Positions 2 through 7,635 are shown, counted from the first letter of the stretch. The stretch: DNA of 24,918 nucleotides from Planctomycetota bacterium (GCA_043802345.1 JAZDLC010000067.1:1-24918), one strand, 5' to 3'. Numbers and translations: made by a program. Notes: generated by a model from the letters alone, not told the origin.

Positions 2-247
2 GACCTGCGCCATGCCTTCGGCTCCCAGCTCGCCGCCGCCGGCGTCCCACTGACGCACATCCAGCGGCTCATGGGCCACAAGGCGATCGCCACCACGATG
101 CGCTACGCGAAGCACCAGCCAGACGATGCCGGCCGTCTCGCAATCGCCCGACTCGAACAGGCCCGCCATTCGAACAGTTCGGCGTCGACCGAAGGCGACG
201 TTGCACATGCACCCGACCGCTCGAACCCCTGGAGAGAGAGCCCATGA
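2..247 (+). CDS. Tyrosine recombinase (phage-type integrase), C-terminal fragment; the 5' end lies outside the window
   Basis: The frame starting at nt 2 has no Met and translates to DLRHAFGSQLAAAGVPLTHIQRLMGHKAIATTMRYAKHQPDD... up to a TGA at 245-247. This matches the tyrosine recombinase C-terminal box (R-H...LLGH..I.TT..Y), including the catalytic RY tyrosine. The ORF track misses it because it has no in-window start. Confidence 0.7.
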   Translation, partial: DLRHAFGSQLAAAGVPLTHIQRLMGHKAIATTMRYAKHQPDDAGRLAIARLEQARHSNSSASTEGDVAHAPDRSNPWRESP

Positions 248-616: not shown

Positions 617-1033
617 CTACTTGGGAGTTCTAGGAACCGTGAAGTTCATCGGCGGAAGGATGACCTGAATCAACCCGGCTCGGCGACAGAGATCGCTGAT
701 CGCCTCTCGCGCGAAGCCGTAGAGGAACGCTGGAGCATGCACCCTCTGGACCGACTCGATATCCACGTCGCTTTCATTCTCGACGAGGAATCTCGCTGAG
801 AAAGTTGCAGCAGCCTTCCAAAGATCCTTCTTCTCATCGACAGTTCCGCTGACAACCACAGTGAGCCGGTGCTCCATGCCGACATCCCTCTGAATCGGCG
901 CGTGCGTCTGGATCTGAAAACTGACCCTGTTCGTCGTCTCTTTCGTTGGGTCTTCAATGGTCCAAGCAAAACTCATCTCAACTAGGTTGACCTGAGTGAC
1001 TGAATAGCCCTTCGTTGGTACTGGATCGGTCAT
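617..1033 (-). CDS. SecB-like export chaperone (solitary SecB homologue, TAC-type)
   Basis: The 138-aa product resembles E. coli SecB. FQIQTHAPIQRDVGME aligns with FQIQRIYTKDISFE, RLTVVVSGTV with VVLRVTVTA, and AFLYGFAREAISDLCRRAGLIQVILPPMNF with [29 protein letters not shown]. Its start overlaps the upstream gene's stop as ATGA at 1030-1033. Confidence 0.8.
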   Translation of the reverse strand: MTDPVPTKGYSVTQVNLVEMSFAWTIEDPTKETTNRVSFQIQTHAPIQRDVGMEHRLTVVVSGTVDEKKDLWKAAATFSARFLVENESDVDIESVQRVHAPAFLYGFAREAISDLCRRAGLIQVILPPMNFTVPRTPK

Positions 1034-1605
1034 GCCGCCTCCGCCATCTCCTCCGCTTCCTCACGTTCGTACTCGGGAGGAGGGCCCACGATGCACTCGA
1101 AATTGACCGAGCCTGCGTTGAGATTTCCAATTGGTGTCCAGTCACCGTGAGGACAACTAGCACCTGACACCAGGCCGAAATCCGGAACTACCAACCTCCC
1201 TCCGGCAATCTCCTTGAACCGTGCATCGAGGTGAACGGGCAACGACGGGGGGAGCACCGAAATGGTGAAGGACCGAGCAACGGTTGGAGTGTACGCGTCG
1301 AAAACGACGCCAAAAGCAGCTCTCACATCCTCCTCGGTCCGAACATGCCCCTCGCGAGGATGCGCCCAGACGATCGATGCCCCAGCGCCATCCACCGCGA
1401 ATTCGCGAGATACGATCTTTCGCAGCAGCTTTCGCTGGAGATCTCGGGCATCTCGACCAAGTGCACCAACCACATTGTACTGCAGTACCATCCCCTCGTC
1501 GGCACCCGCGCATCGCGTCACGAAGACCGGGTACGGAAACACCTGATCGCGTAGCTCCCTCAGCACCTCTCGAGCTATCTGCATATCTGGAGCAACGTCG
1601 CTCAT
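1030..1605 (-). CDS. Hypothetical protein with acidic C-terminal tail (candidate antitoxin of a TAC module)
   Basis: The 191-aa ORF is translationally coupled on both sides (ATGA at 1602-1605 and 1030-1033). I recognise no known domain. A hydrophobic patch SVNFECIVG is followed by the acidic tail PPPEYEREEAEEMAEAA, which could be a chaperone-addiction segment. The antisense ORFs are low-complexity. Confidence 0.55.
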   Translation of the reverse strand: MSDVAPDMQIAREVLRELRDQVFPYPVFVTRCAGADEGMVLQYNVVGALGRDARDLQRKLLRKIVSREFAVDGAGASIVWAHPREGHVRTEEDVRAAFGVVFDAYTPTVARSFTISVLPPSLPVHLDARFKEIAGGRLVVPDFGLVSGASCPHGDWTPIGNLNAGSVNFECIVGPPPEYEREEAEEMAEAA

Positions 1606-2015
1606 GGATTCACACCTAGTCCTTCGAGAAGTGCCCTCAGCTCTCTGAGATCTTCCAATACGTGGGTGCGTTTGGGGCTTCCTGGACCGTAGTCTGCCTC
1701 GATTCGCCTCTGTTTCAGATCCGCGTAGCGCACCGAGTTCTCCGTGGCATCCTGCCGATTCCAGCCACTCCCAAGAAAAGCGGCCCGGGCGTTGCTTTGG
1801 ACCCGTCCATGGTCCCAGTTTCCTCTTTCGTTCTTCAGAGCCTCTGGGTTTAGCCCCCTCGCGAGCAATCTCGCGATAACCGCCTGGAACAGGGCGTAGT
1901 AGTTCCTTGTCGCTGCTGGCCGGTGGTGCTCTCCAGGAGGTTGAAAACCCATCAGAACTTCGGACGCGCGATAGTTTGCTCGGGATCGATCTCGGAACTC
2001 CTCGGGCGACGACAT
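1602..2015 (-). CDS. HEPN-domain protein (candidate RNase toxin)
   Basis: The 137-aa product contains NYYALFQAVIARLLARGLNPEALKNERGNWDHGRVQSNARAAFL. This is the hallmark HEPN helix (AYYAxFHAAxALL) followed by an Rx4HG motif. It is the first gene of the coupled cassette. AAGAGGGA lies about 12 nt upstream of the ATG. Confidence 0.6.
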   Translation of the reverse strand: MSSPEEFRDRSRANYRASEVLMGFQPPGEHHRPAATRNYYALFQAVIARLLARGLNPEALKNERGNWDHGRVQSNARAAFLGSGWNRQDATENSVRYADLKQRRIEADYGPGSPKRTHVLEDLRELRALLEGLGVNP

Positions 2016-2176: not shown

Positions 2177-2251
2177 GACCGAAACTCCATGCATTCAATC
2201 CTCCGTAATACGATTACAGCAAATGGGTTGCAGCATCCTCACGGTACATCC

Positions 2252-2312
2252 GCGCCAGATTTAGGATCTGGTGCCGAAAGGCGTGGGGGTTCGAGTCCCC
2301 CCTCTCGCACCA
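2252..2312 (+). other. Truncated tRNA-Leu(UAG) 3' portion (anticodon arm, long variable arm, T-arm, acceptor 3' strand, CCA); putative att-site remnant
   Basis: CCAGA-TTTAGGA-TCTGG forms an anticodon stem-loop with anticodon TAG, U33 and G37. TGCCGAAAGGCG is a type-II variable arm. GGGGGTTCGAGTCCCCC is the T-arm. CTCTCGC-A-CCA is the acceptor 3' strand, very close to the E. coli tRNA-Leu 3' end. No D-arm and no matching 5' acceptor strand (GCGAGAG) is present upstream, so this is not a complete tRNA. Confidence 0.55.
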
Positions 2313-2435: not shown

Positions 2436-3380
2436 TTGGAACAGAGAGACTACCCGCGCGACGATTTCGACGGCCCCTGGAAGGAAGCGCTGGAGATCTA
2501 CTTCGAGGACGCTCTCCGCCTCCTGATTCCGGACCTTCATGCCGCCATCGACTGGAATCAGGAGGTCGCATTCCTCGACAAGGAGCTGCAGAGTTTCTTC
2601 CCGGATGAAGGCAGCGGCAAGGGAATCGTCGATCTGCTTGCGCGGGTCATGACGCAGAAAGGCACACCCGCCCGGATTCTGCTCCATGTCGAAGTCCAGG
2701 GGAATGTGGATCGATCGTTCGCCCTGCGCATGTACCAGTATCAGTACAAGGCGTTCGACCACTCCGGACTCCCGGTCGAGAGCGTCGCCATTCTCGCCGA
2801 CCTCAGCCCGTCCTTCCGCCCGGACCATTTCGAACAGGTCGCACTGCATACTCGGATCCGATTCGACTTCACGACCGTCAAGCTGCTCGACTTCGAGGAC
2901 CGCGTCGACGAACTGGGAACCAGCGACAACCCGTTCGCCATGTTCGTGCTGGCGTATCTCCGCGCGCGGCGGAATCGGGATGGCGAGAGGCGGTACCGGT
3001 ACAAGATCGAGCTGGTGCGCCTCCTGTACGACAGAGATTTCGACCGCGTGGACGTGGTACAATTGCTGCGGTTGCTCGACAAGGTCATCGGGCTGCCGCA
3101 CGACCTCAGAAGACCGTTCCAGCATGCCGTCACGCAGATCGAGGAGGATCGGACGATGACCAGTTACGGGAGCCTCGAGGAGTTGGCGATGGAGAAGTAC
3201 TCTCGCAGAGCGATCCTGACCGTGATGGAAACGCGGTTCGGGACCCTGCCTCCAGAGCTCAGTGCGGCCCTGGAGCAAATCGAGTACCTCGACATCCTGG
3301 ACGGACTTGTCCGCCAGGCGGTGCTGGTCGAGGACGTCGAAACCTACCTCACAGCCGTGAGAAAGCACGTCCCCTCCTGA
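2436..3380 (+). CDS. Putative Rpn/YhgA-like PD-(D/E)XK nuclease or transposase, DUF4351-type C-terminus
   Basis: The N-terminal DGPWKEALEIYFEDALRLLIPDL, the core motif GIVDLLARV...ILLHVEVQ (D...E-V-Q) and the C-terminal TVMETRFGTLPPELSAALEQIEYLDILDGL all match this family (recognition from memory, no search run). The antisense 410-aa ORF 2214..3446 is an artefact. Confidence 0.8.
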   Translation: MEQRDYPRDDFDGPWKEALEIYFEDALRLLIPDLHAAIDWNQEVAFLDKELQSFFPDEGSGKGIVDLLARVMTQKGTPARILLHVEVQGNVDRSFALRMYQYQYKAFDHSGLPVESVAILADLSPSFRPDHFEQVALHTRIRFDFTTVKLLDFEDRVDELGTSDNPFAMFVLAYLRARRNRDGERRYRYKIELVRLLYDRDFDRVDVVQLLRLLDKVIGLPHDLRRPFQHAVTQIEEDRTMTSYGSLEELAMEKYSRRAILTVMETRFGTLPPELSAALEQIEYLDILDGLVRQAVLVEDVETYLTAVRKHVPS

Positions 3381-3434
3381 GGGCCAGTCCGATTCTCCGG
3401 TGGCCCGGCGAGCAAGTCGGGAGCGCTCTCCCCT

Positions 3435-3470
3435 GGCCGCAGCCACCGGCCCCCTTCGTGCTCTTCGTGC
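3435..3470. repeat. About 35-nt imperfect direct repeat, copy 1 (GCAGCCACCGGCCCCCTTCGTGCTCTTCGTGC)
   Basis: It is about 85% identical to copy 2 at 3626..3660. The two copies flank the small EYEY ORF. Confidence 0.5.
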
Positions 3471-3667
3471 TACTTGCCTCGAACTTCTTCGCGGCGCGCG
3501 TAGATCTTTCCATACTCGTACTCAGCGAAGCGGTACTCGTACTCGAACCCCCCACGCGGGTCGGCCTTCGACGATTCGAGTGCGCGTACGAGTACGGGAT
3601 CGATGCCCGGCACCTCTCTCTTTGGTTGCGGCCACCGCCCCCCCCTCATGCTCTTCATGCCCTTCAT
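3470..3667 (-). CDS. Candidate small protein (65 aa) with EYEY repeats; uncertain
   Basis: The ORF reads MKGMKSMRGG...GGFEYEYRFAEYEYGKIYARREEVRGK and starts 14 nt after the flotillin stop. The EYEY repeats account for the nucleotide-level ACTCGTACTC repeats. The SD is weak. It could instead be a non-coding structured region. Confidence 0.2.
   Translation of the reverse strand: MKGMKSMRGGRWPQPKREVPGIDPVLVRALESSKADPRGGFEYEYRFAEYEYGKIYARREEVRGK
3626..3660. repeat. About 35-nt imperfect direct repeat, copy 2 (GCGGCCACCGCCCCCCCCTCATGCTCTTCATGC)
   Basis: It is paired with copy 1 at 3435..3470. Confidence 0.5.
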
Positions 3668-3683
3668 GGTTCAGCTCTGACGA

Positions 3684-5291
3684 TCAGCCGTCCTGCCCCT
3701 TCTTCTCGGCTCCTTCCTTGGCCTCCGGCTTGGCCGCGTCTTTCTTGCTCTCCTTGGCCGGAGCGGGCTCCTCCTGCTTCACGAGCCTGCCGAAGAACTC
3801 CGGCATCTCGACGCCGCCGACGTCCTTCATGATCTGCATCATCGGCGGGATGGCTCCGCCCAGGCTCTTCAGGAAGCCCGAGGTGGCGCTGCCGTTCCCG
3901 CCGGCGTTGCCGCCGTCCCAGACGATGACCTTGTCGAACTTGATGTTGGAGATCGCCTTTGCCGCGGTCTCCGAGAGATGATCGAGGTGCTCCAGCATCA
4001 GCATCTGGAACGCCTCGTGCGACCCGCCACACGCCTGGACGATGCTGCGCAGACCTTCGCCCTTCTTCGCCAGGATCTCGTACTGGCCCCGGGCCGTTGC
4101 GTCGAGCCTCGCGAAGATGGCCGACGCCTCGCCTTCCGCCTCGATCCGCCGCCTTTCGGCCACGGCCTCCGCGTCGACGATCACCTTCGCCTTTTGTGCC
4201 TTGGCCACCGCCTCCAGCTCGGCCCTTTTTTCCGCCTCCTGCTTGGCGGCCATCGCCAGGGCCGCCTTGGTCTCCGCGTGGTACTGCGCCTCGAGCACTC
4301 CGGCCTCCGCCTCGCGCTTTCGCGTCTCGCCGATTTGGTACGCCTCCGCTTCCTTGACCTTCAGGGTGGCATTCACGTCGGCGATCTGCGCCTTCGATAG
4401 GTTCTCGCCGGTGACCGCCTTGGCGTTGGCGCTTGCCACCTGGATGCGCATCTCCCTTTCCGCATCCTTGATCATCGACTCCTGCTCGAAGCGGGCCGTC
4501 TCCTCGCCGACCGCCTTTTCCTTCTCCAGCACGGCGAGCCTCACCGCCTGCTCCCGTTCCGCCTCCTTGGTGCCGATGCTCTGGAACTTGACCGCGTTTG
4601 CAACCTGGATCTGCCGTTCCCGCTGGTTCTCCGCCACACCGATGGCGCCCTTCTTCTCCTGCACCGCCACGTCCACCAGCGCCTGCTGGATCGCCTCGGA
4701 CGCCGCCTTGCGGCCGATCGCCTCGATATACCCAGACTCGTCGGTGATGTCGGTGATATTGACGTTGATCAGCACCAGCCCGATCTTCTCGAGTTCCGGC
4801 TCCAGAGAGCGCTGGATGCTCTCCAGGAACTTCTCGCGGTCCCGGTTGATGTCCTCGATCAGCATCGACGCGATCACCTGACGCAACTGGCCGAAGATGA
4901 TGTCCTCGGCCTGCTTCATGATCTCGGACGTGGAAAGCCCGAGCAGACGAATCGCCGCGTTCTGCATGGTGGGGCCCTGGGTCCCCACCGCCACCGTGAA
5001 CACGCTCGGAACATTGACCCGGATGTTCTCGATGGAGAGCGCGCCTTTCAGCGGAATCTCGATCTGGATCGGATCCAGGCCGATGTACGCGTAGTCCTGG
5101 ATCAGAGGCCAGATGAACGCGCCGCCGCCATGTAAGCACTTGGCGGACTGGCCGGAGGCGACCTTGCCGTACACCACGAGCACGCGGTTGCTGGGGCAGC
5201 GCTTGTAGCGCGTGACCACCATCATCAGCATCAGGAAGGCGACGAACAGCGCCGCCACGATGATTCCAATTGTGTACGGATTGTCAGGCAT
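3684..5291 (-). CDS. Flotillin-family SPFH-domain protein (YqiK/FloT-like)
   Basis: An N-terminal TM segment is followed by the SPFH region VLVVYGKV...GGGAFIWPLIQDYAYIGLDPIQIEIPLKGALSIENIRVNV. There is a long Ala/Glu/Lys coiled-coil region and a charged tail. The start overlaps the nfeD stop as TGATG. Confidence 0.9.
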   Translation of the reverse strand: MPDNPYTIGIIVAALFVAFLMLMMVVTRYKRCPSNRVLVVYGKVASGQSAKCLHGGGAFIWPLIQDYAYIGLDPIQIEIPLKGALSIENIRVNVPSVFTVAVGTQGPTMQNAAIRLLGLSTSEIMKQAEDIIFGQLRQVIASMLIEDINRDREKFLESIQRSLEPELEKIGLVLINVNITDITDESGYIEAIGRKAASEAIQQALVDVAVQEKKGAIGVAENQRERQIQVANAVKFQSIGTKEAEREQAVRLAVLEKEKAVGEETARFEQESMIKDAEREMRIQVASANAKAVTGENLSKAQIADVNATLKVKEAEAYQIGETRKREAEAGVLEAQYHAETKAALAMAAKQEAEKRAELEAVAKAQKAKVIVDAEAVAERRRIEAEGEASAIFARLDATARGQYEILAKKGEGLRSIVQACGGSHEAFQMLMLEHLDHLSETAAKAISNIKFDKVIVWDGGNAGGNGSATSGFLKSLGGAIPPMMQIMKDVGGVEMPEFFGRLVKQEEPAPAKESKKDAAKPEAKEGAEKKGQDG

Positions 5292-5911
5292 CAGTTGGCT
5301 CCCTCGTCCAGAGACACGACTTCCAGGGTGTCGTCCGCGGGTACGCCGACGATCCTGACCATTGAACCAGTCTTCAATTCCTTGCCGGCCGTCACCGCCT
5401 TGGCCTCGACCGTGCGGCCCTGAACGGCCACGGTCACCTTCCCCCTCCCCTGGTGATTCCCGGGGATGCTCAGGTAGACCTTCGCGGCGGAGCCGATCGA
5501 GTTGCGCAGGTCGACGTTCCCCGAGGACTGCAGCTTCGAGAGGCCGGCCATCAGCCAGGCCACGATGTAGAGCGCAGCCGAACCGGAGGCGACCGAGATC
5601 ATCAGCGTCGGCACCGCCGAGACGCCGCCGCGGGTGGAGGCCATGCCGGAGAGGCCGAAGAAGGTCACGAACGCGACCAGCGTCTTGAACGTCAGCACCT
5701 TGAAGAACGCGTCGGCGGCGTCGGCGTGCGCCTCGGCTCCCCCATCCATGTCCAGGTCACCGTCCAGGTCGGCGTCGGTGTCGCTGAATCCGATCAGCAC
5801 CATGATCACCTGCAAGGCGAGGATCCCGCCGCCGATGATCGAGCAGTAGAAGTAGACAGTTTCCATGATTCGACGCGTCCCGAAAAACCAGCCCGTGGTA
5901 GCTGGAGACAC
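5291..5911 (-). CDS. NfeD-family membrane protein (YqiJ-like flotillin partner)
   Basis: N-terminal TM helices are followed by a C-terminal OB-fold-like KVTVAVQGRTVEAKAV...MVRIVGV. It is coupled to the flotillin gene. The start is GTG at 5911 (GGTGGAG upstream) or possibly ATG at 5866. Confidence 0.75.
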   Translation of the reverse strand: MSPATTGWFFGTRRIMETVYFYCSIIGGGILALQVIMVLIGFSDTDADLDGDLDMDGGAEAHADAADAFFKVLTFKTLVAFVTFFGLSGMASTRGGVSAVPTLMISVASGSAALYIVAWLMAGLSKLQSSGNVDLRNSIGSAAKVYLSIPGNHQGRGKVTVAVQGRTVEAKAVTAGKELKTGSMVRIVGVPADDTLEVVSLDEGAN

Positions 5912-6023: not shown

Positions 6024-6053
6024 CACTTCCCTATGGCTTTCTCAAGGGAAGTG
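6024..6053. promoter_or_regulatory. Perfect 9-bp inverted repeat (CACTTCCCT-N12-AGGGAAGTG) spanning the stop codon of the secreted-protein gene
   Basis: Seen directly in the sequence. No U-tract follows on the minus strand, so it is not a canonical intrinsic terminator. Confidence 0.3.
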
Positions 6054-7418
6054 GATCATGGACGGAGCCCCCAACTGCGCGGGCAGGCCGAACAGGGTGC
6101 TGCCGAAGTCGTACGGCTGCGCCAGGAGGATCCAACCACTCAGGGGATGGCCGAGCGGTCCGCCGATCACGGCCACTCCGTTGAAGTCCGCGGGAACCTG
6201 GGCCACGCCGTAGGTCGGGACCGCGTAGAACTGAGGGAACCAGCGGCCGTGGATCGTCGAGCCGATCGGCTGGTACCCGGGGATCGCCGGTTGCAGGCTG
6301 AAGAAGAGCGCGATCGACTGTCCGGGAGTGCAGTTCCCGATGTCGAATTCGACCCAGTTCTCGCTCGGGTAGTTCACTTCGCCATCCACCACGTCCGTGA
6401 CCAGGGCGCGGCCGGTCTCCGGCTGCACCGTCAGGGCTCCGATTCCTCCGCTCATCGAGCCGAGCCCGAAGTGTCCCAGATTCGGCACCGCGGCGCCCAG
6501 GGGCGGACCGGAACCGGTCGTGGCGAACTCGCCGTTGTTCTTCGTGGTCAGCACCACGGGACCCAGACTCTCGCCGGAGAAGTACAGGTTCGGATGGGGC
6601 TGTCCATCCAGTCCGATGAAGGTCTGCGCATTGGCGTCAATGGCCAGACAGGTGAGATCGCCGATCGTGGAGGAAGTGGTCAGCCCGGTGTTCGCCACCA
6701 TGGCATCCACGTCCGCCTCGTTCAGCAGCAGCACGGCGGAACCAGATGTGACGGTGAGCACTACACCGGAGCCGGCGAAGGTCATCGCCGCGGCCGGGAT
6801 CATCACCACTCCGCCGTCGCCCACCAGCGTGCCATTCACCATCTCGTCATCCGCGAAGGAGAGGTAGATGTTCCCGGCCACATCCTGGGTGAAGGCGTTG
6901 GTGTCGAGGGCGTCGACCCCGGAAGTCTGGCCCACCGCCGACAGGATCTGACTCTCCAGCAGCACGCTCTGTACGAAGTCGCCGCCGGACGCTCCGGGAA
7001 CAAACCGGAAGACCGAACCCTTGGAGACGCCGCCGAACGACTCGCTGGTCGAGAAGACGAACGAAAAGACGTTTCGGATCTCGAGGGGAGGCGCCGGAAC
7101 CTTCAGGATGTCGATGGCGTCGAAGCTGCCGATGAAGTTCTCCGCAAAGACCCCGTCCGCATCGTGATCCCCGAGGATCGTATCGATCGTGACGTTGGTC
7201 AGGATCTTCTCGCAAGAGAAGGTGAAGACCGGCTGGAAGCTCACGACATCAGTCGGTCCGAGGTTGGCCAGGACCGTCCCGCTCGAGCCGGAGGCCGTGG
7301 TGCCGCTGCCGTTCAGGACAAAGATGGCTGCGTCGGGGCCCGGGACAATCTGCGCCGAGGCGCTCAATCCGAGTACGGAGATCAGGAACAGGGTGCACGG
7401 GGTTCTGCGGATCATCAT
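6042..7418 (-). CDS. Hypothetical secreted Ser/Gly/Thr-rich protein with N-terminal signal peptide
   Basis: Good SD (GGAGAAGTGAGG) precedes the ATGATG at 7418/7415. The signal peptide is MMIRRTPCTLFLISVLGLSASA|Q. The track start at 7463 adds 15 residues with no SD. The antisense 528-aa ORF 5865..7451 is Arg/Gly/His-rich and an artefact. Confidence 0.6.
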   Translation of the reverse strand: MMIRRTPCTLFLISVLGLSASAQIVPGPDAAIFVLNGSGTTASGSSGTVLANLGPTDVVSFQPVFTFSCEKILTNVTIDTILGDHDADGVFAENFIGSFDAIDILKVPAPPLEIRNVFSFVFSTSESFGGVSKGSVFRFVPGASGGDFVQSVLLESQILSAVGQTSGVDALDTNAFTQDVAGNIYLSFADDEMVNGTLVGDGGVVMIPAAAMTFAGSGVVLTVTSGSAVLLLNEADVDAMVANTGLTTSSTIGDLTCLAIDANAQTFIGLDGQPHPNLYFSGESLGPVVLTTKNNGEFATTGSGPPLGAAVPNLGHFGLGSMSGGIGALTVQPETGRALVTDVVDGEVNYPSENWVEFDIGNCTPGQSIALFFSLQPAIPGYQPIGSTIHGRWFPQFYAVPTYGVAQVPADFNGVAVIGGPLGHPLSGWILLAQPYDFGSTLFGLPAQLGAPSMIHFP

Positions 7419-7635
7419 CCTCACTTCTCCAGGTGTCCAGAAAGTAGGTAGTGTGGTTCCCATTCGGAAGACGCCAACCGCCTGGCGAGCAACCTCCGCC
7501 GGACCGTCACGATCACTGGGGGCAATGTCGTCAGATTTGGACGAACTGCCACCTTGATTGGTTCAGATCCGAAAAAAAAACTATCAGTCCGACCAAATTC
7601 TGGATGTCTTTGCCTGGAATCGGCCCGTTCCCCGG

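What the first reader, a model, noticed from the sequence alone, without database searches (positions are those of the whole stretch)
3381..3683. Repeat-structured intergenic region with small EYEY-repeat ORF downstream of flotillin
Two imperfect direct repeats of about 35 nt (3435-3470 and 3626-3660; CCACCG[G/C]CCCCC..TTC[G/A]TGCTCTTC[G/A]TGC) bracket a 65-aa minus-strand ORF. Its peptide has EYEY-R-FAEYEY-GKIY repeats, mirrored by ACTCGTACTC nucleotide repeats. The second repeat copy covers the ORF start and the first lies just past its stop. The ORF begins 14 nt after the flotillin stop. This could be a small flotillin-associated protein, a mobile miniature element, or a structured RNA.
Basis: seen in the sequence. 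Interest (0 to 1): 0.5.

Follow-up and report, generated by a model that had tools for sequence, protein, structure and literature searches.

The report
Worn dispersed repeat, not a gene
The 300-base gap after the flotillin gene holds a worn, partly duplicated copy of a short palindromic DNA repeat that is scattered through Planctomycetota genomes. The 65-codon 'EYEY' reading frame is a by-product of the repeat's GAGTAC hexamers, not a partner protein of flotillin.

Summary
Two direct repeats (3426-3470 and 3614-3660, 77% identical over 47 columns, spaced 189-190 nt) bracket a 65-aa minus-strand ORF whose EYEY motifs come from GAGTAC hexamers.

The ORF is most likely not a gene.
- It has no relative downstream of 70 related flotillin genes.
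- Its only hit among 1.84 billion protein representatives is a translation of tandem DNA repeats.
- DNA homology to those repeats continues across a 2-nt indel, so it does not depend on reading frame.

The core (31 nt identical, 3515-3545) belongs to a dispersed, mostly intergenic repeat family. Its exact 21-mer occurs in at least 120 metagenome contigs, some next to Planctomycetota-type genes. The family has inverted (GTACTC)n/(GAGTAC)n arms, variable 9/18/21-nt modules and tandem unit duplications. In 48 of 66 loci its right end faces the 3' end of a gene on the other strand. The window follows that rule with the convergent Rpn-like gene.

The window's copy is imperfect (fold z about 0) and is the only copy found in 785 kb of this lineage. 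It is about 1.25 tandem units, which explains the direct repeat.

No Rfam, Pfam, NCBIfam, PADLOC or PDB match, and no paper with the motif. Verdict: a relic of an apparently undescribed MITE/REP/BOX-like repeat. Interest is modest.

The parts
3512..3548 (-). Right arm and core of the repeat: TTCGAGTACGAGTAC-CGCTTCGCT-GAGTACGAGTAT. It includes the 21-mer at 3518-3538 and the 31 nt at 3515-3545 that are identical to both units of L071.
   Evidence: Alignment A1. The exact 21-mer is in at least 120 metagenome contigs. All 313 blastn matches to family contigs pile up on 3513-3548. A family nhmmer profile hits 3502-3570 at E 5e-12.
3580..3605 (-). Left arm: the inverted, degenerate hexamers GTACTC-GTACGC-GCACTC-GAA.
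   Evidence: Inverted repeat I1, 26 nt, 77% complementary to 3523-3548. Aligns with the (GTACTC)n arms of L191, L175 and L161.
3549..3579 (-). Loop of 31 nt between the two arms. It has no counterpart of the roughly 85-nt conserved centre of the main subfamily.
3464..3511 (-). Tail of unit 1. The stretch 3491-3464 (CGAAGAAGTTCGAGGCAAGTAGCACGAA) aligns with the family's right terminus CGACGAAATCCGATGCGAG-GCACGAA.
   Evidence: Local alignment score 20; 1.2% of 500 shuffles reach it. DNA homology to L071 continues here after a 2-nt indel.
3614..3660 (-). Direct-repeat copy A, the start of tandem unit 1. It carries the three ATGs of the ORF.
   Evidence: Partly aligned with the unit junctions of L071 (GGGC.G..GCCGCAACC.AA).
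3426..3470 (-). Direct-repeat copy B, the start of a truncated second unit. The ATGs of copy A are ACG here.
   Evidence: No match in 0.82 Mb of contigs carrying the family.
3470..3667 (-). The 65-aa ORF (GenBank V2A76_02390), judged to be a spurious call.
3381..3449 (+). GC-rich nested palindromes just after the stop of the Rpn-like gene. They are the hairpin 3381-3406, the 8-bp stem CCGGTGGC 3397-3404 with GCCACCGG 3442-3449 (the second half lies inside copy B), and GGGAGCGCTCTCCC 3419-3432. None is followed by a T-run.
   Evidence: Read from the sequence. Fold. No terminator called here.

Best explanation
The region is non-coding DNA. It holds about 1.25 tandem units (unit 1 = 3471-3660; the start of unit 2 = 3426-3470) of a degenerate copy of a dispersed palindromic repeat family of Planctomycetota.

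How the family is built:
- Inverted arms of GTACTC/GAGTAC hexamers.
- Short insertable modules between the hexamers, such as CGCTTCGCT.
- A terminus of the form ...GCACGAA(C).

- GAG-TAC reads as Glu-Tyr and GTA-CTC reads as Val-Leu, and neither contains a stop codon. The element therefore leaves an open frame, and the gene caller reported it as a 65-aa protein.
- The 'direct repeats bracketing the ORF' are the repeated unit boundary of a local partial tandem duplication. Whole-unit duplications of this kind are seen in related contigs.

What is shown and what is inferred:
- Shown: homology to the family, homology that does not depend on reading frame, lack of a conserved ORF, and tandem-unit behaviour elsewhere.
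- Inferred: the copy sits passively in a gap between convergent genes, where such elements are tolerated. At most it contributes an imperfect hairpin to the 3' untranslated ends of the Rpn-like and flotillin transcripts.
- Inferred: family members spread by transposition or by recombination-driven copying. No transposase was identified.
For: Against a gene:
- No relative of the ORF, and none of the DNA, lies downstream of 70 related flotillin genes.
- A full HMMER scan of 1.84 billion representatives gave one non-self hit, P0002 (E 1e-4). P0002 is the translation of two tandem units of about 160 nt on contig L071.

For DNA-level homology:
- Window 3670-3426 (minus strand) aligns with both L071 units, with 31 nt identical.
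- Homology continues after a 2-nt indel directly behind the core, so it does not depend on reading frame.

For a dispersed family:
- Flanking genes fall into 166 clusters out of 209, so the genomic contexts are diverse.
- DUF1559/N-methyl proteins lie beside some copies.
- Long inverted arms and variable modules are visible in A2 and its consensus.
- The 21-nt module occurs as tandem arrays.
- The right end faces the 3' end of a gene on the other strand in 48 of 66 de-duplicated loci, p = 3e-4. The window obeys this: the Rpn-like stop lies 137 nt from the core end, against a median of 116-136 in the family.
- Tandem units occur in L071 and L166. L082 and L083 show an insertion polymorphism at an orthologous locus.

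For a degenerate, solitary copy:
- Intact members fold strongly (z -5.5 and -7.5), whereas the window copy does not (z 0 and -0.6).
- A family profile finds one copy in the window (E 5e-12) and none in 760 kb of related genomes.

On coding signal:
- Codon-usage score is 0.18 bits per codon. That is the 5.5th percentile of real-gene windows and the 93.5th percentile of wrong frames.
Against: - The minus-strand frame of the ORF is still the best of the six frames, and NCBI's pipeline called it as a gene.
- The right arm is perfectly conserved while the left arm has decayed. A neutral relic would not obviously show that pattern. It hints at a sequence-specific constraint on the 31-mer.
- No target-site duplication, no defined element ends and no transposase were shown, so 'mobile' is an inference.
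- The 47-nt repeat module has no counterpart in the sampled family contigs. Its link to the family rests on position, on a weak alignment to L071 junctions, and on the GCACGAA terminus (p about 0.012).
- The other contigs of this MAG could not be searched.
- The family contigs were collected through an exact 21-mer, so conservation inside that 21-mer is built in by the search.
Confidence: 0.75

Rival explanations
1. The copy works at the RNA level. It would be a 3'-UTR stabiliser, terminator or small-RNA module transcribed on the plus strand behind the Rpn-like gene, like intact family members. The invariant 31-mer would be a binding site for a protein or another RNA.
For: - The orientation bias points to co-transcription with the upstream gene on the strand opposite the core.
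- Intact members form very stable hairpins.
- In the main subfamily the elements are flanked by roughly 80-nt hairpin modules that show strong covariation and end in T-runs.
- In the window the right arm is exactly conserved although the left arm has drifted.
Against: - The window copy folds no better than shuffled sequence.
- No terminator or promoter was called in 3381-3683.
- There is no Rfam match.
- The covariance model of the flanking hairpin finds nothing in the window.
- There are no transcription data.
Confidence: 0.13
2. The ORF is a real, lineage-specific small protein of 65 aa translated downstream of flotillin, possibly co-transcribed with it.
For: - It is an open frame with an ATG 16 nt after the flotillin stop on the same strand.
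- It has the best codon score of the six frames.
- It is annotated in GenBank.
Against: - No homologue in 70 flotillin loci.
- No hits in the 5.8-billion and 1.84-billion protein sets apart from a translated repeat.
- No hits in Pfam, NCBIfam, PADLOC or PDB.
- The homologous DNA in L071 differs by indels that are not multiples of three.
- The ATGs lie in a repeat whose other copy reads ACG.
- The same hexamers occur inverted on the same strand, which a coding constraint cannot explain.
- The codon score lies in the bottom 5.5% of real-gene windows.
Confidence: 0.07
3. The direct repeats are recombination scars, for example att-like sites left by the neighbouring integrase-bearing island or by the rearrangement that replaced the response-regulator/kinase genes found here in the closest relatives.
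For: - Synteny with the closest relatives breaks exactly at this region.
- A tyrosine recombinase fragment, a low-GC segment and a tRNA-Leu 3' fragment lie 1-3 kb away.
Against: - The likely att repeat of that island is the tRNA fragment at 2251-2312, not this sequence.
- The repeats are only 190 nt apart and enclose a member of a dispersed repeat family. Tandem unit duplication explains that more simply.
- There are no integron attC features, meaning no RYYYAAC...GTTRRRY ends (read from the sequence).
Confidence: 0.03

Closest known systems
BOX elements of Streptococcus pneumoniae (boxA-boxB(n)-boxC mosaic repeats; from my own knowledge of the literature)
   Same: Non-coding, intergenic, hairpin-forming and modular. 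An internal module is present in a variable number of tandem copies: here the 21-nt GAGTAC-CGCTTCGCT-GAGTAC unit and the hexamers. No transposase of its own.
   Different: No sequence similarity, and a different phylum. The arms here are built of a 6-nt microsatellite-like unit. The ends are not defined. An orientation bias towards gene 3' ends was measured here.
REP / BIME / REPIN elements mobilised by RAYT transposases (PMC3733652, which also reports tagged REPs in Planctomycetes)
   Same: Palindromic repeats that sit between genes, often between convergent 3' ends. They form mosaics with other palindromic units and show compensatory changes in their stems (the flanking hairpin module).
   Different: REP units are 20-40 nt and carry an unpaired GTAG or CGTC tag (PMC3733652). 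No such tagged unit was recognised here, the element is 150-250 nt, and no RAYT gene was seen or could be searched for.
Bacterial MITEs such as Correia and ERIC elements, and the Porphyromonas gingivalis MITE that contains a minisatellite (PMC4596501, title and abstract only)
   Same: Small (about 150-250 bp) with long imperfect terminal inverted repeats. Many copies in diverse intergenic contexts, and some carry an internal tandem repeat.
   Different: No target-site duplication, parent insertion sequence or exact ends were shown here. The window's copy is solitary in the sampled lineage.
Rhodopirellula-1 motif (Weinberg et al. 2010, PMC2864571)
   Same: A multi-copy hairpin motif reported from Planctomycetes with a variable terminal loop. 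It is not in Rfam.
   Different: Its sequences (AACAA..GAUGAAC...GUUAUC..GUU) share nothing with the GAGTAC element. It is described as lying 5' of short hypothetical genes.

Membership tests
GAGTAC-hexamer palindromic repeat family of Planctomycetota (defined here; I found no published description) | Core GAGTAC-CGCTTCGCT-GAGTAC flanked by further GAGTAC hexamers | tested here: met
   Exact 21-mer at 3518-3538, and 31 nt identical to L071. Family nhmmer profile E 5e-12.
GAGTAC-hexamer palindromic repeat family of Planctomycetota (defined here; I found no published description) | Inverted (GTACTC)n arm upstream of the core that forms a hairpin with it | tested here: met
   Arms 3580-3605 and 3523-3548, 77% complementary. 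They are imperfect: fold z 0 and -0.6, against -5.5 and -7.5 in L191 and L175.
GAGTAC-hexamer palindromic repeat family of Planctomycetota (defined here; I found no published description) | Right terminus ...CGACGAAATCCGATGCGAGGCACGAAC | tested here: inconclusive
   3491-3464 aligns with score 20; 1.2% of shuffles reach it.
GAGTAC-hexamer palindromic repeat family of Planctomycetota (defined here; I found no published description) | Intergenic position, with the right end facing the 3' end of a gene on the other strand | tested here: met
   The Rpn-like gene (plus strand) stops at 3380, 137 nt from the core end. In the family this arrangement holds in 48 of 66 loci, with a median of 116 nt.
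GAGTAC-hexamer palindromic repeat family of Planctomycetota (defined here; I found no published description) | Conserved centre of about 85 nt and flanking 80-nt hairpin modules (main freshwater subfamily only) | tested here: not met
   The loop is 31 nt and unrelated. Covariance model R1 of the flanking hairpin finds nothing in the window. Similarity to the flanking hairpin module does not exceed shuffles. The window therefore belongs, at most, to a short-loop subfamily like L071, L191 and L175.
[quoted passage not shown] | Terminal inverted repeats and small size | tested here: met
   The family consensus runs GTTCGTGC...(GTACTC)n ... (GAGTAC)n...GCACGAAC over about 225 nt. In the window only the inner arms are present.
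[quoted passage not shown] | Target-site duplication and a related autonomous insertion sequence | not tested
   No matching empty site was available for the GAGTAC element itself. The one polymorphism found, L082 versus L083, concerns a neighbouring 279-nt block. No transposase search over whole genomes was possible.
REP/REPIN (RAYT-associated) | A 20-40-nt palindrome with an unpaired GTAG or CGTC tag, and a RAYT gene in the genome | tested here: inconclusive
   No tagged unit of that size was recognised by eye in the alignments. GTAG does occur at the unit junction (3474-3471), but there is no adjacent short palindrome. A RAYT gene cannot be looked for with these tools.
Protein-coding gene (small flotillin-associated protein) | ORF conserved in relatives, with frame-preserving variation | tested here: not met
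   Stop codons and +/-1 frame shifts occur among family copies.
Any Rfam 15 RNA family | Match at the gathering score | tested here: not met
   No hit in the window. None at E up to 10 inside 3381-3683; the only hit in the searched stretch 3300-3760 is a chance snoRNA hit at 3722-3740. No hit in nine contigs that carry the family.
Intrinsic terminator | GC-rich hairpin followed by a T-run | tested here: not met
   None was called in 3381-3683 on either strand.
Integron attC site | RYYYAAC ... GTTRRRY ends around an imperfect palindrome that follows a cassette ORF | tested here: not met
   Read from the sequence: no GTTRRRY or RYYYAAC pair. The only GTT near a repeat is GTTGCGG (3625-3631), which does not fit.

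The most novel reading that the evidence does not exclude
The GAGTAC-hexamer elements and the covarying 80-nt hairpins that flank them are an undescribed class of self-contained RNA or single-stranded-DNA modules of Planctomycetota. The invariant 31-mer would be a specific recognition site for a transposase, an RNA-binding protein or a partner RNA. The window's copy would keep that site because it is still used, for example in the 3' untranslated region of the Rpn-like gene, and would not be a dead relic.
Probability: 0.15. Interest if true: 0.55.

Novelty: new member of a known kind. Interest (0 to 1): 0.3.

Why it matters
For this window, it removes a misleading 'hypothetical protein' next to flotillin and explains an odd-looking repeat structure in ordinary terms.

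More broadly, the check turned up a widespread repeat family in Planctomycetota that appears to be undescribed. Its features are hexamer-built palindromic arms, expandable 21-nt modules and neighbouring hairpins with clear covariation.

Such families can affect mRNA ends, seed spurious ORF calls in MAG annotation, break assemblies, and mark mobile-DNA activity. Genome regulation and mobile elements are poorly known in this phylum. The family would be worth a proper census, but the copy in this window is a minor, probably inert example.

Tried and rejected
Protein-level checks on the ORF, all negative:
- Pfam, NCBIfam, PADLOC and PDB.
- The word-indexed search of 5.8 billion proteins found only the ORF itself.

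RNA-level checks:
- Rfam at the gathering score and at E up to 10: nothing.
- Folding of the whole region and of the hairpin: no excess stability.
- Terminator and promoter scan: nothing inside the region.

Links that were tested and not found:
- Flotillin: 70 related loci lack both the ORF and the DNA.
- The Rpn-like gene: its 72%-identical relative (L192) has a plain 75-nt gap instead. A partial paralogue in the same MAG (P0008) could not be fetched.
- Viral contigs and plasmids: no match.

Ideas about the family that did not hold up:
- A small hydrophobic or arginine-rich ORF (type I toxin-like) across the left arm of the main subfamily. Rejected because start codons are inconsistent, some copies carry stop codons, and there are +/-1 indels.
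- The window's 47-nt repeat as a diverged copy of the flanking 80-nt hairpin module. Rejected by alignment statistics and by the covariance model.
- Integron attC and the Rhodopirellula-1 motif: the sequences do not fit.

Literature: searches for the motif strings and for Planctomycetes repeats found no description.

Full report
**The observation**

- The direct repeat is 3434-3470 versus 3623-3660 with one 1-nt indel.
- A gapped alignment extends it to 3426-3470 versus 3614-3660. There, 36 of 47 columns are identical and the score is 35. Shuffles gave 18.6 +/- 2.8, maximum 30.
- Each copy holds a 9-nt tandem.
- The minus-strand ORF 3470-3667 encodes 65 aa.
- Its EYEY motifs are the hexamer GAGTAC repeated. 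An inverted copy of the hexamers lies 40-70 nt upstream.
- The ORF starts 16 nt, not 14, after the flotillin stop.

**The surroundings**

- On the minus strand lie a secreted protein (6042-7463), an NfeD-like gene (5291-5911) and flotillin (3684-5291; Band_7, E 1e-25).
- On the plus strand an Rpn/DUF4351-type nuclease gene (2436-3380) runs towards flotillin. The region is therefore a gap between two convergent 3' ends.
- In the two closest relatives (flotillin 77-79% identical), a response regulator and a histidine kinase follow flotillin instead. Synteny therefore breaks at the region.
- Further left are a tRNA-Leu 3' fragment, a lower-GC segment and the C-terminus of a tyrosine recombinase.

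**Is the ORF a gene?**

The protein has no match in Pfam, NCBIfam, PADLOC or the PDB. It matches only itself among 5.8 billion clustered proteins.

None of 70 related flotillin loci (760 kb) encodes anything like it or carries the DNA.

Codon usage is ambiguous. The frame is the best of six. It scores 0.18 bits per codon, which is the 5.5th percentile of real-gene windows and the 93.5th of wrong frames.

A full HMMER scan of 1.84 billion representatives gave one other hit, P0002 (E 1e-4). P0002 is not a protein family. It is the read-through translation of two tandem DNA units of about 160 nt on a 987-bp metagenome contig, L071.

At the DNA level the window's minus strand (3670-3426) aligns with both L071 units. 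Thirty-one nucleotides are identical (CGAGTACGAGTACCGCTTCGCTGAGTACGAG, 3545-3515), and further blocks are shared on both sides. Directly behind the core the two sequences differ by a 2-nt indel, and after it the DNA similarity carries on in a different reading frame. The other gaps are also not multiples of three.

The three ATGs of the ORF lie in the upstream repeat copy, and the downstream copy reads ACG at those positions. The same hexamers also occur inverted on the same strand. A palindrome explains that; a coding constraint does not.

I conclude that the ORF is a by-product of the repeat.

**The family**

It occurs in no viral contig.

- The contigs have a median of 54% G+C. Some copies lie next to DUF1559/N-methyl proteins, a family I know to be greatly expanded in Planctomycetota.
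- Flanking genes are diverse, 166 clusters among 209. Most copies lie outside long ORFs.
- The dominant subfamily is about 225 nt. It reads GTTCGTGC-TTCTTC-(TCGTAC)n...GAAGCG, then a centre of about 85 nt that is more than 90% conserved, then CATC-(GAGTAC)2-CGTTTCACT-GAGTAC-CGCTTCGCT-(GAGTAC)2-GACGAAATCCGATGCGAGGCACGAAC. In other words, it has long imperfect inverted arms.
- The modules between hexamers are 9, 18 or 21 nt and vary in kind and number. The 21-nt unit forms arrays of 4 to about 10 copies in three contigs.
- Short-loop members (L191, L175) are very stable hairpins, with z of -5.5 and -7.5.
- Whole units occur in tandem in L071 and L166.
- An orthologous locus differs by a 279-nt block inserted at the element's end.
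- After collapsing orthologous loci, the right end faces the 3' end of a gene on the other strand in 48 of 66 cases (p = 3e-4). The left end shows no bias, 35 to 32.
- I found no Rfam family, no plasmid match and no paper containing the motif.

**The window's copy**

- It has the exact right arm and core.
- Its left arm carries three substitutions (GTACTC-GTACGC-GCACTC).
- Its loop is 31 nt and unrelated to the main subfamily's centre.
- Its tail aligns weakly but better than chance with the family's right terminus (p about 0.012).
- It folds no better than shuffled sequence.
- It is the only hit of a family profile in the window and in 760 kb of related genomes.
- It obeys the orientation rule with respect to the Rpn-like gene, whose stop lies 137 nt from the core end.
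- It is not linked to that gene. The gene's 72%-identical relative lacks the element, and no flanking gene of the family resembles it.

**The direct repeat**

The 47-nt module has no counterpart in 0.82 Mb of contigs that carry the family. It is not a copy of the 80-nt hairpin that flanks the main subfamily.

It does sit where the unit junctions of the L071 tandem sit, and it partly aligns with them. Its first bases are the family's GCACGAA terminus.

The simplest reading is a local partial tandem duplication. Unit 1 is 3471-3660 and the first 45 nt of a second unit are 3426-3470. Both have since diverged to 77% identity. This step is an inference.

**Mechanism and rivals**

The most likely reading (0.75) is inert or nearly inert non-coding DNA: a relic of a MITE/REP/BOX-like repeat sitting in a tolerant gap between convergent genes, with a spurious ORF call.

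The main rival (0.13) is that it still acts at the RNA level on the plus strand. In its favour are the family's orientation bias, the stable hairpins of intact members, the covarying and T-tailed flanking hairpins elsewhere, and the unexplained perfect conservation of the right arm. Against it, this copy lacks any stable or terminator-like structure.

A real orphan protein (0.07) and a recombination scar (0.03) are less likely.

**Comparison with known kinds**

The family behaves like the mosaic intergenic repeats of other bacteria, namely BOX, REP/BIME/REPIN, Correia and ERIC elements and other MITEs.

It cannot be filed under any of them. It shows no GTAG or CGTC-tagged 20-40-nt unit (PMC3733652). 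No target-site duplication or parent insertion sequence has been shown. It has no similarity to the Rhodopirellula-1 motif (PMC2864571).

I therefore rate it as a new member of a known kind. The copy in this window is of low interest. The family, and especially the flanking hairpins with clear covariation, deserves a separate look.

**Limits**

- The family sample was drawn through an exact 21-mer.
- Gene contexts rest on simple ORF calls of at least 150 aa (100 aa or more for the flank-gene clustering).
- There are no expression data.

Noticed in passing
L073, L083, L097, L115, L118, L119, L141, L181 and others (alignment A4); not present in the window: A second dispersed module of about 80 nt: AACG-N-[X]-TCACC-n-A-[S]...loop...[S']-TT-n'-GGTGCA-[X']-TTT. 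It flanks the GAGTAC elements and also occurs alone. It forms an 18-bp interrupted hairpin with strong covariation. 82.8% of cells are paired against 69.5% in shuffles (0 of 500 reach it). There are 90 double-change cells against 31. The covariation score is 0.37, against at most 0.11 when the pairing is slid. It has no Rfam match and no hit in the window.
   Followed up: partly
L082 versus L083 (the orthologous locus, reverse strands): The flanks are 98.7% identical, but L082 has an extra block of about 279 nt inserted directly after the element's GCACGAAC end. The same block follows the element in several unrelated contigs. This is an insertion polymorphism of another dispersed module.
   Followed up: partly
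L090 1399-1524, L128 6633-6716, L143 5119-5223: The 21-nt unit GAGTAC-CGCTTCGCT-GAGTAC is repeated head to tail 4 to about 10 times. L099 and L157 have long GAGCAC/GAGGAC hexamer runs. This is minisatellite-like expansion inside the right arm.
   Followed up: no
window 2251-2312 (+), with 2-247 (+) and 250-2250: The 3' part of a tRNA-Leu(UAG) is present, from the anticodon arm to CCA, with no 5' half. ARAGORN finds no tRNA, and the Rfam tRNA hit is partial at 18.8 bits. A tyrosine recombinase C-terminus sits at the contig start, and a 53-60% G+C segment lies in between. This is probably the end of an integrated island with its att repeat.
   Followed up: partly
window 617-2015 (-): A SecB-like ORF (617-1033; NCBIfam SecB, E 3e-10, well below the curated cut-off) overlaps by a few bases with two ORFs of unknown function (1030-1605 and 1602-2015). 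This may be a toxin-antitoxin-chaperone set inside the island. There is no PADLOC hit.
   Followed up: no
window 2436-3380 (+): An Rpn/YhgA-like, DUF4351-type nuclease ('putative transposase'). It has a 68%-identical partial paralogue elsewhere in the same MAG (V2A76_14695) and a 72% relative on ENA contigs.
   Followed up: partly
L001 7757-7850 and L002 7478-7570: In both closest relatives the gap downstream of flotillin contains a stretch that gives the same 30-residue translation (MSQGVSLELGIRERERREAALAGRPLAHVF). It may be a conserved non-coding element. It is absent from the window.
   Followed up: no
L071 875-936: A 31+31-nt palindrome with no spacer, 74% complementary, lies directly after the two tandem units.
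   Followed up: no
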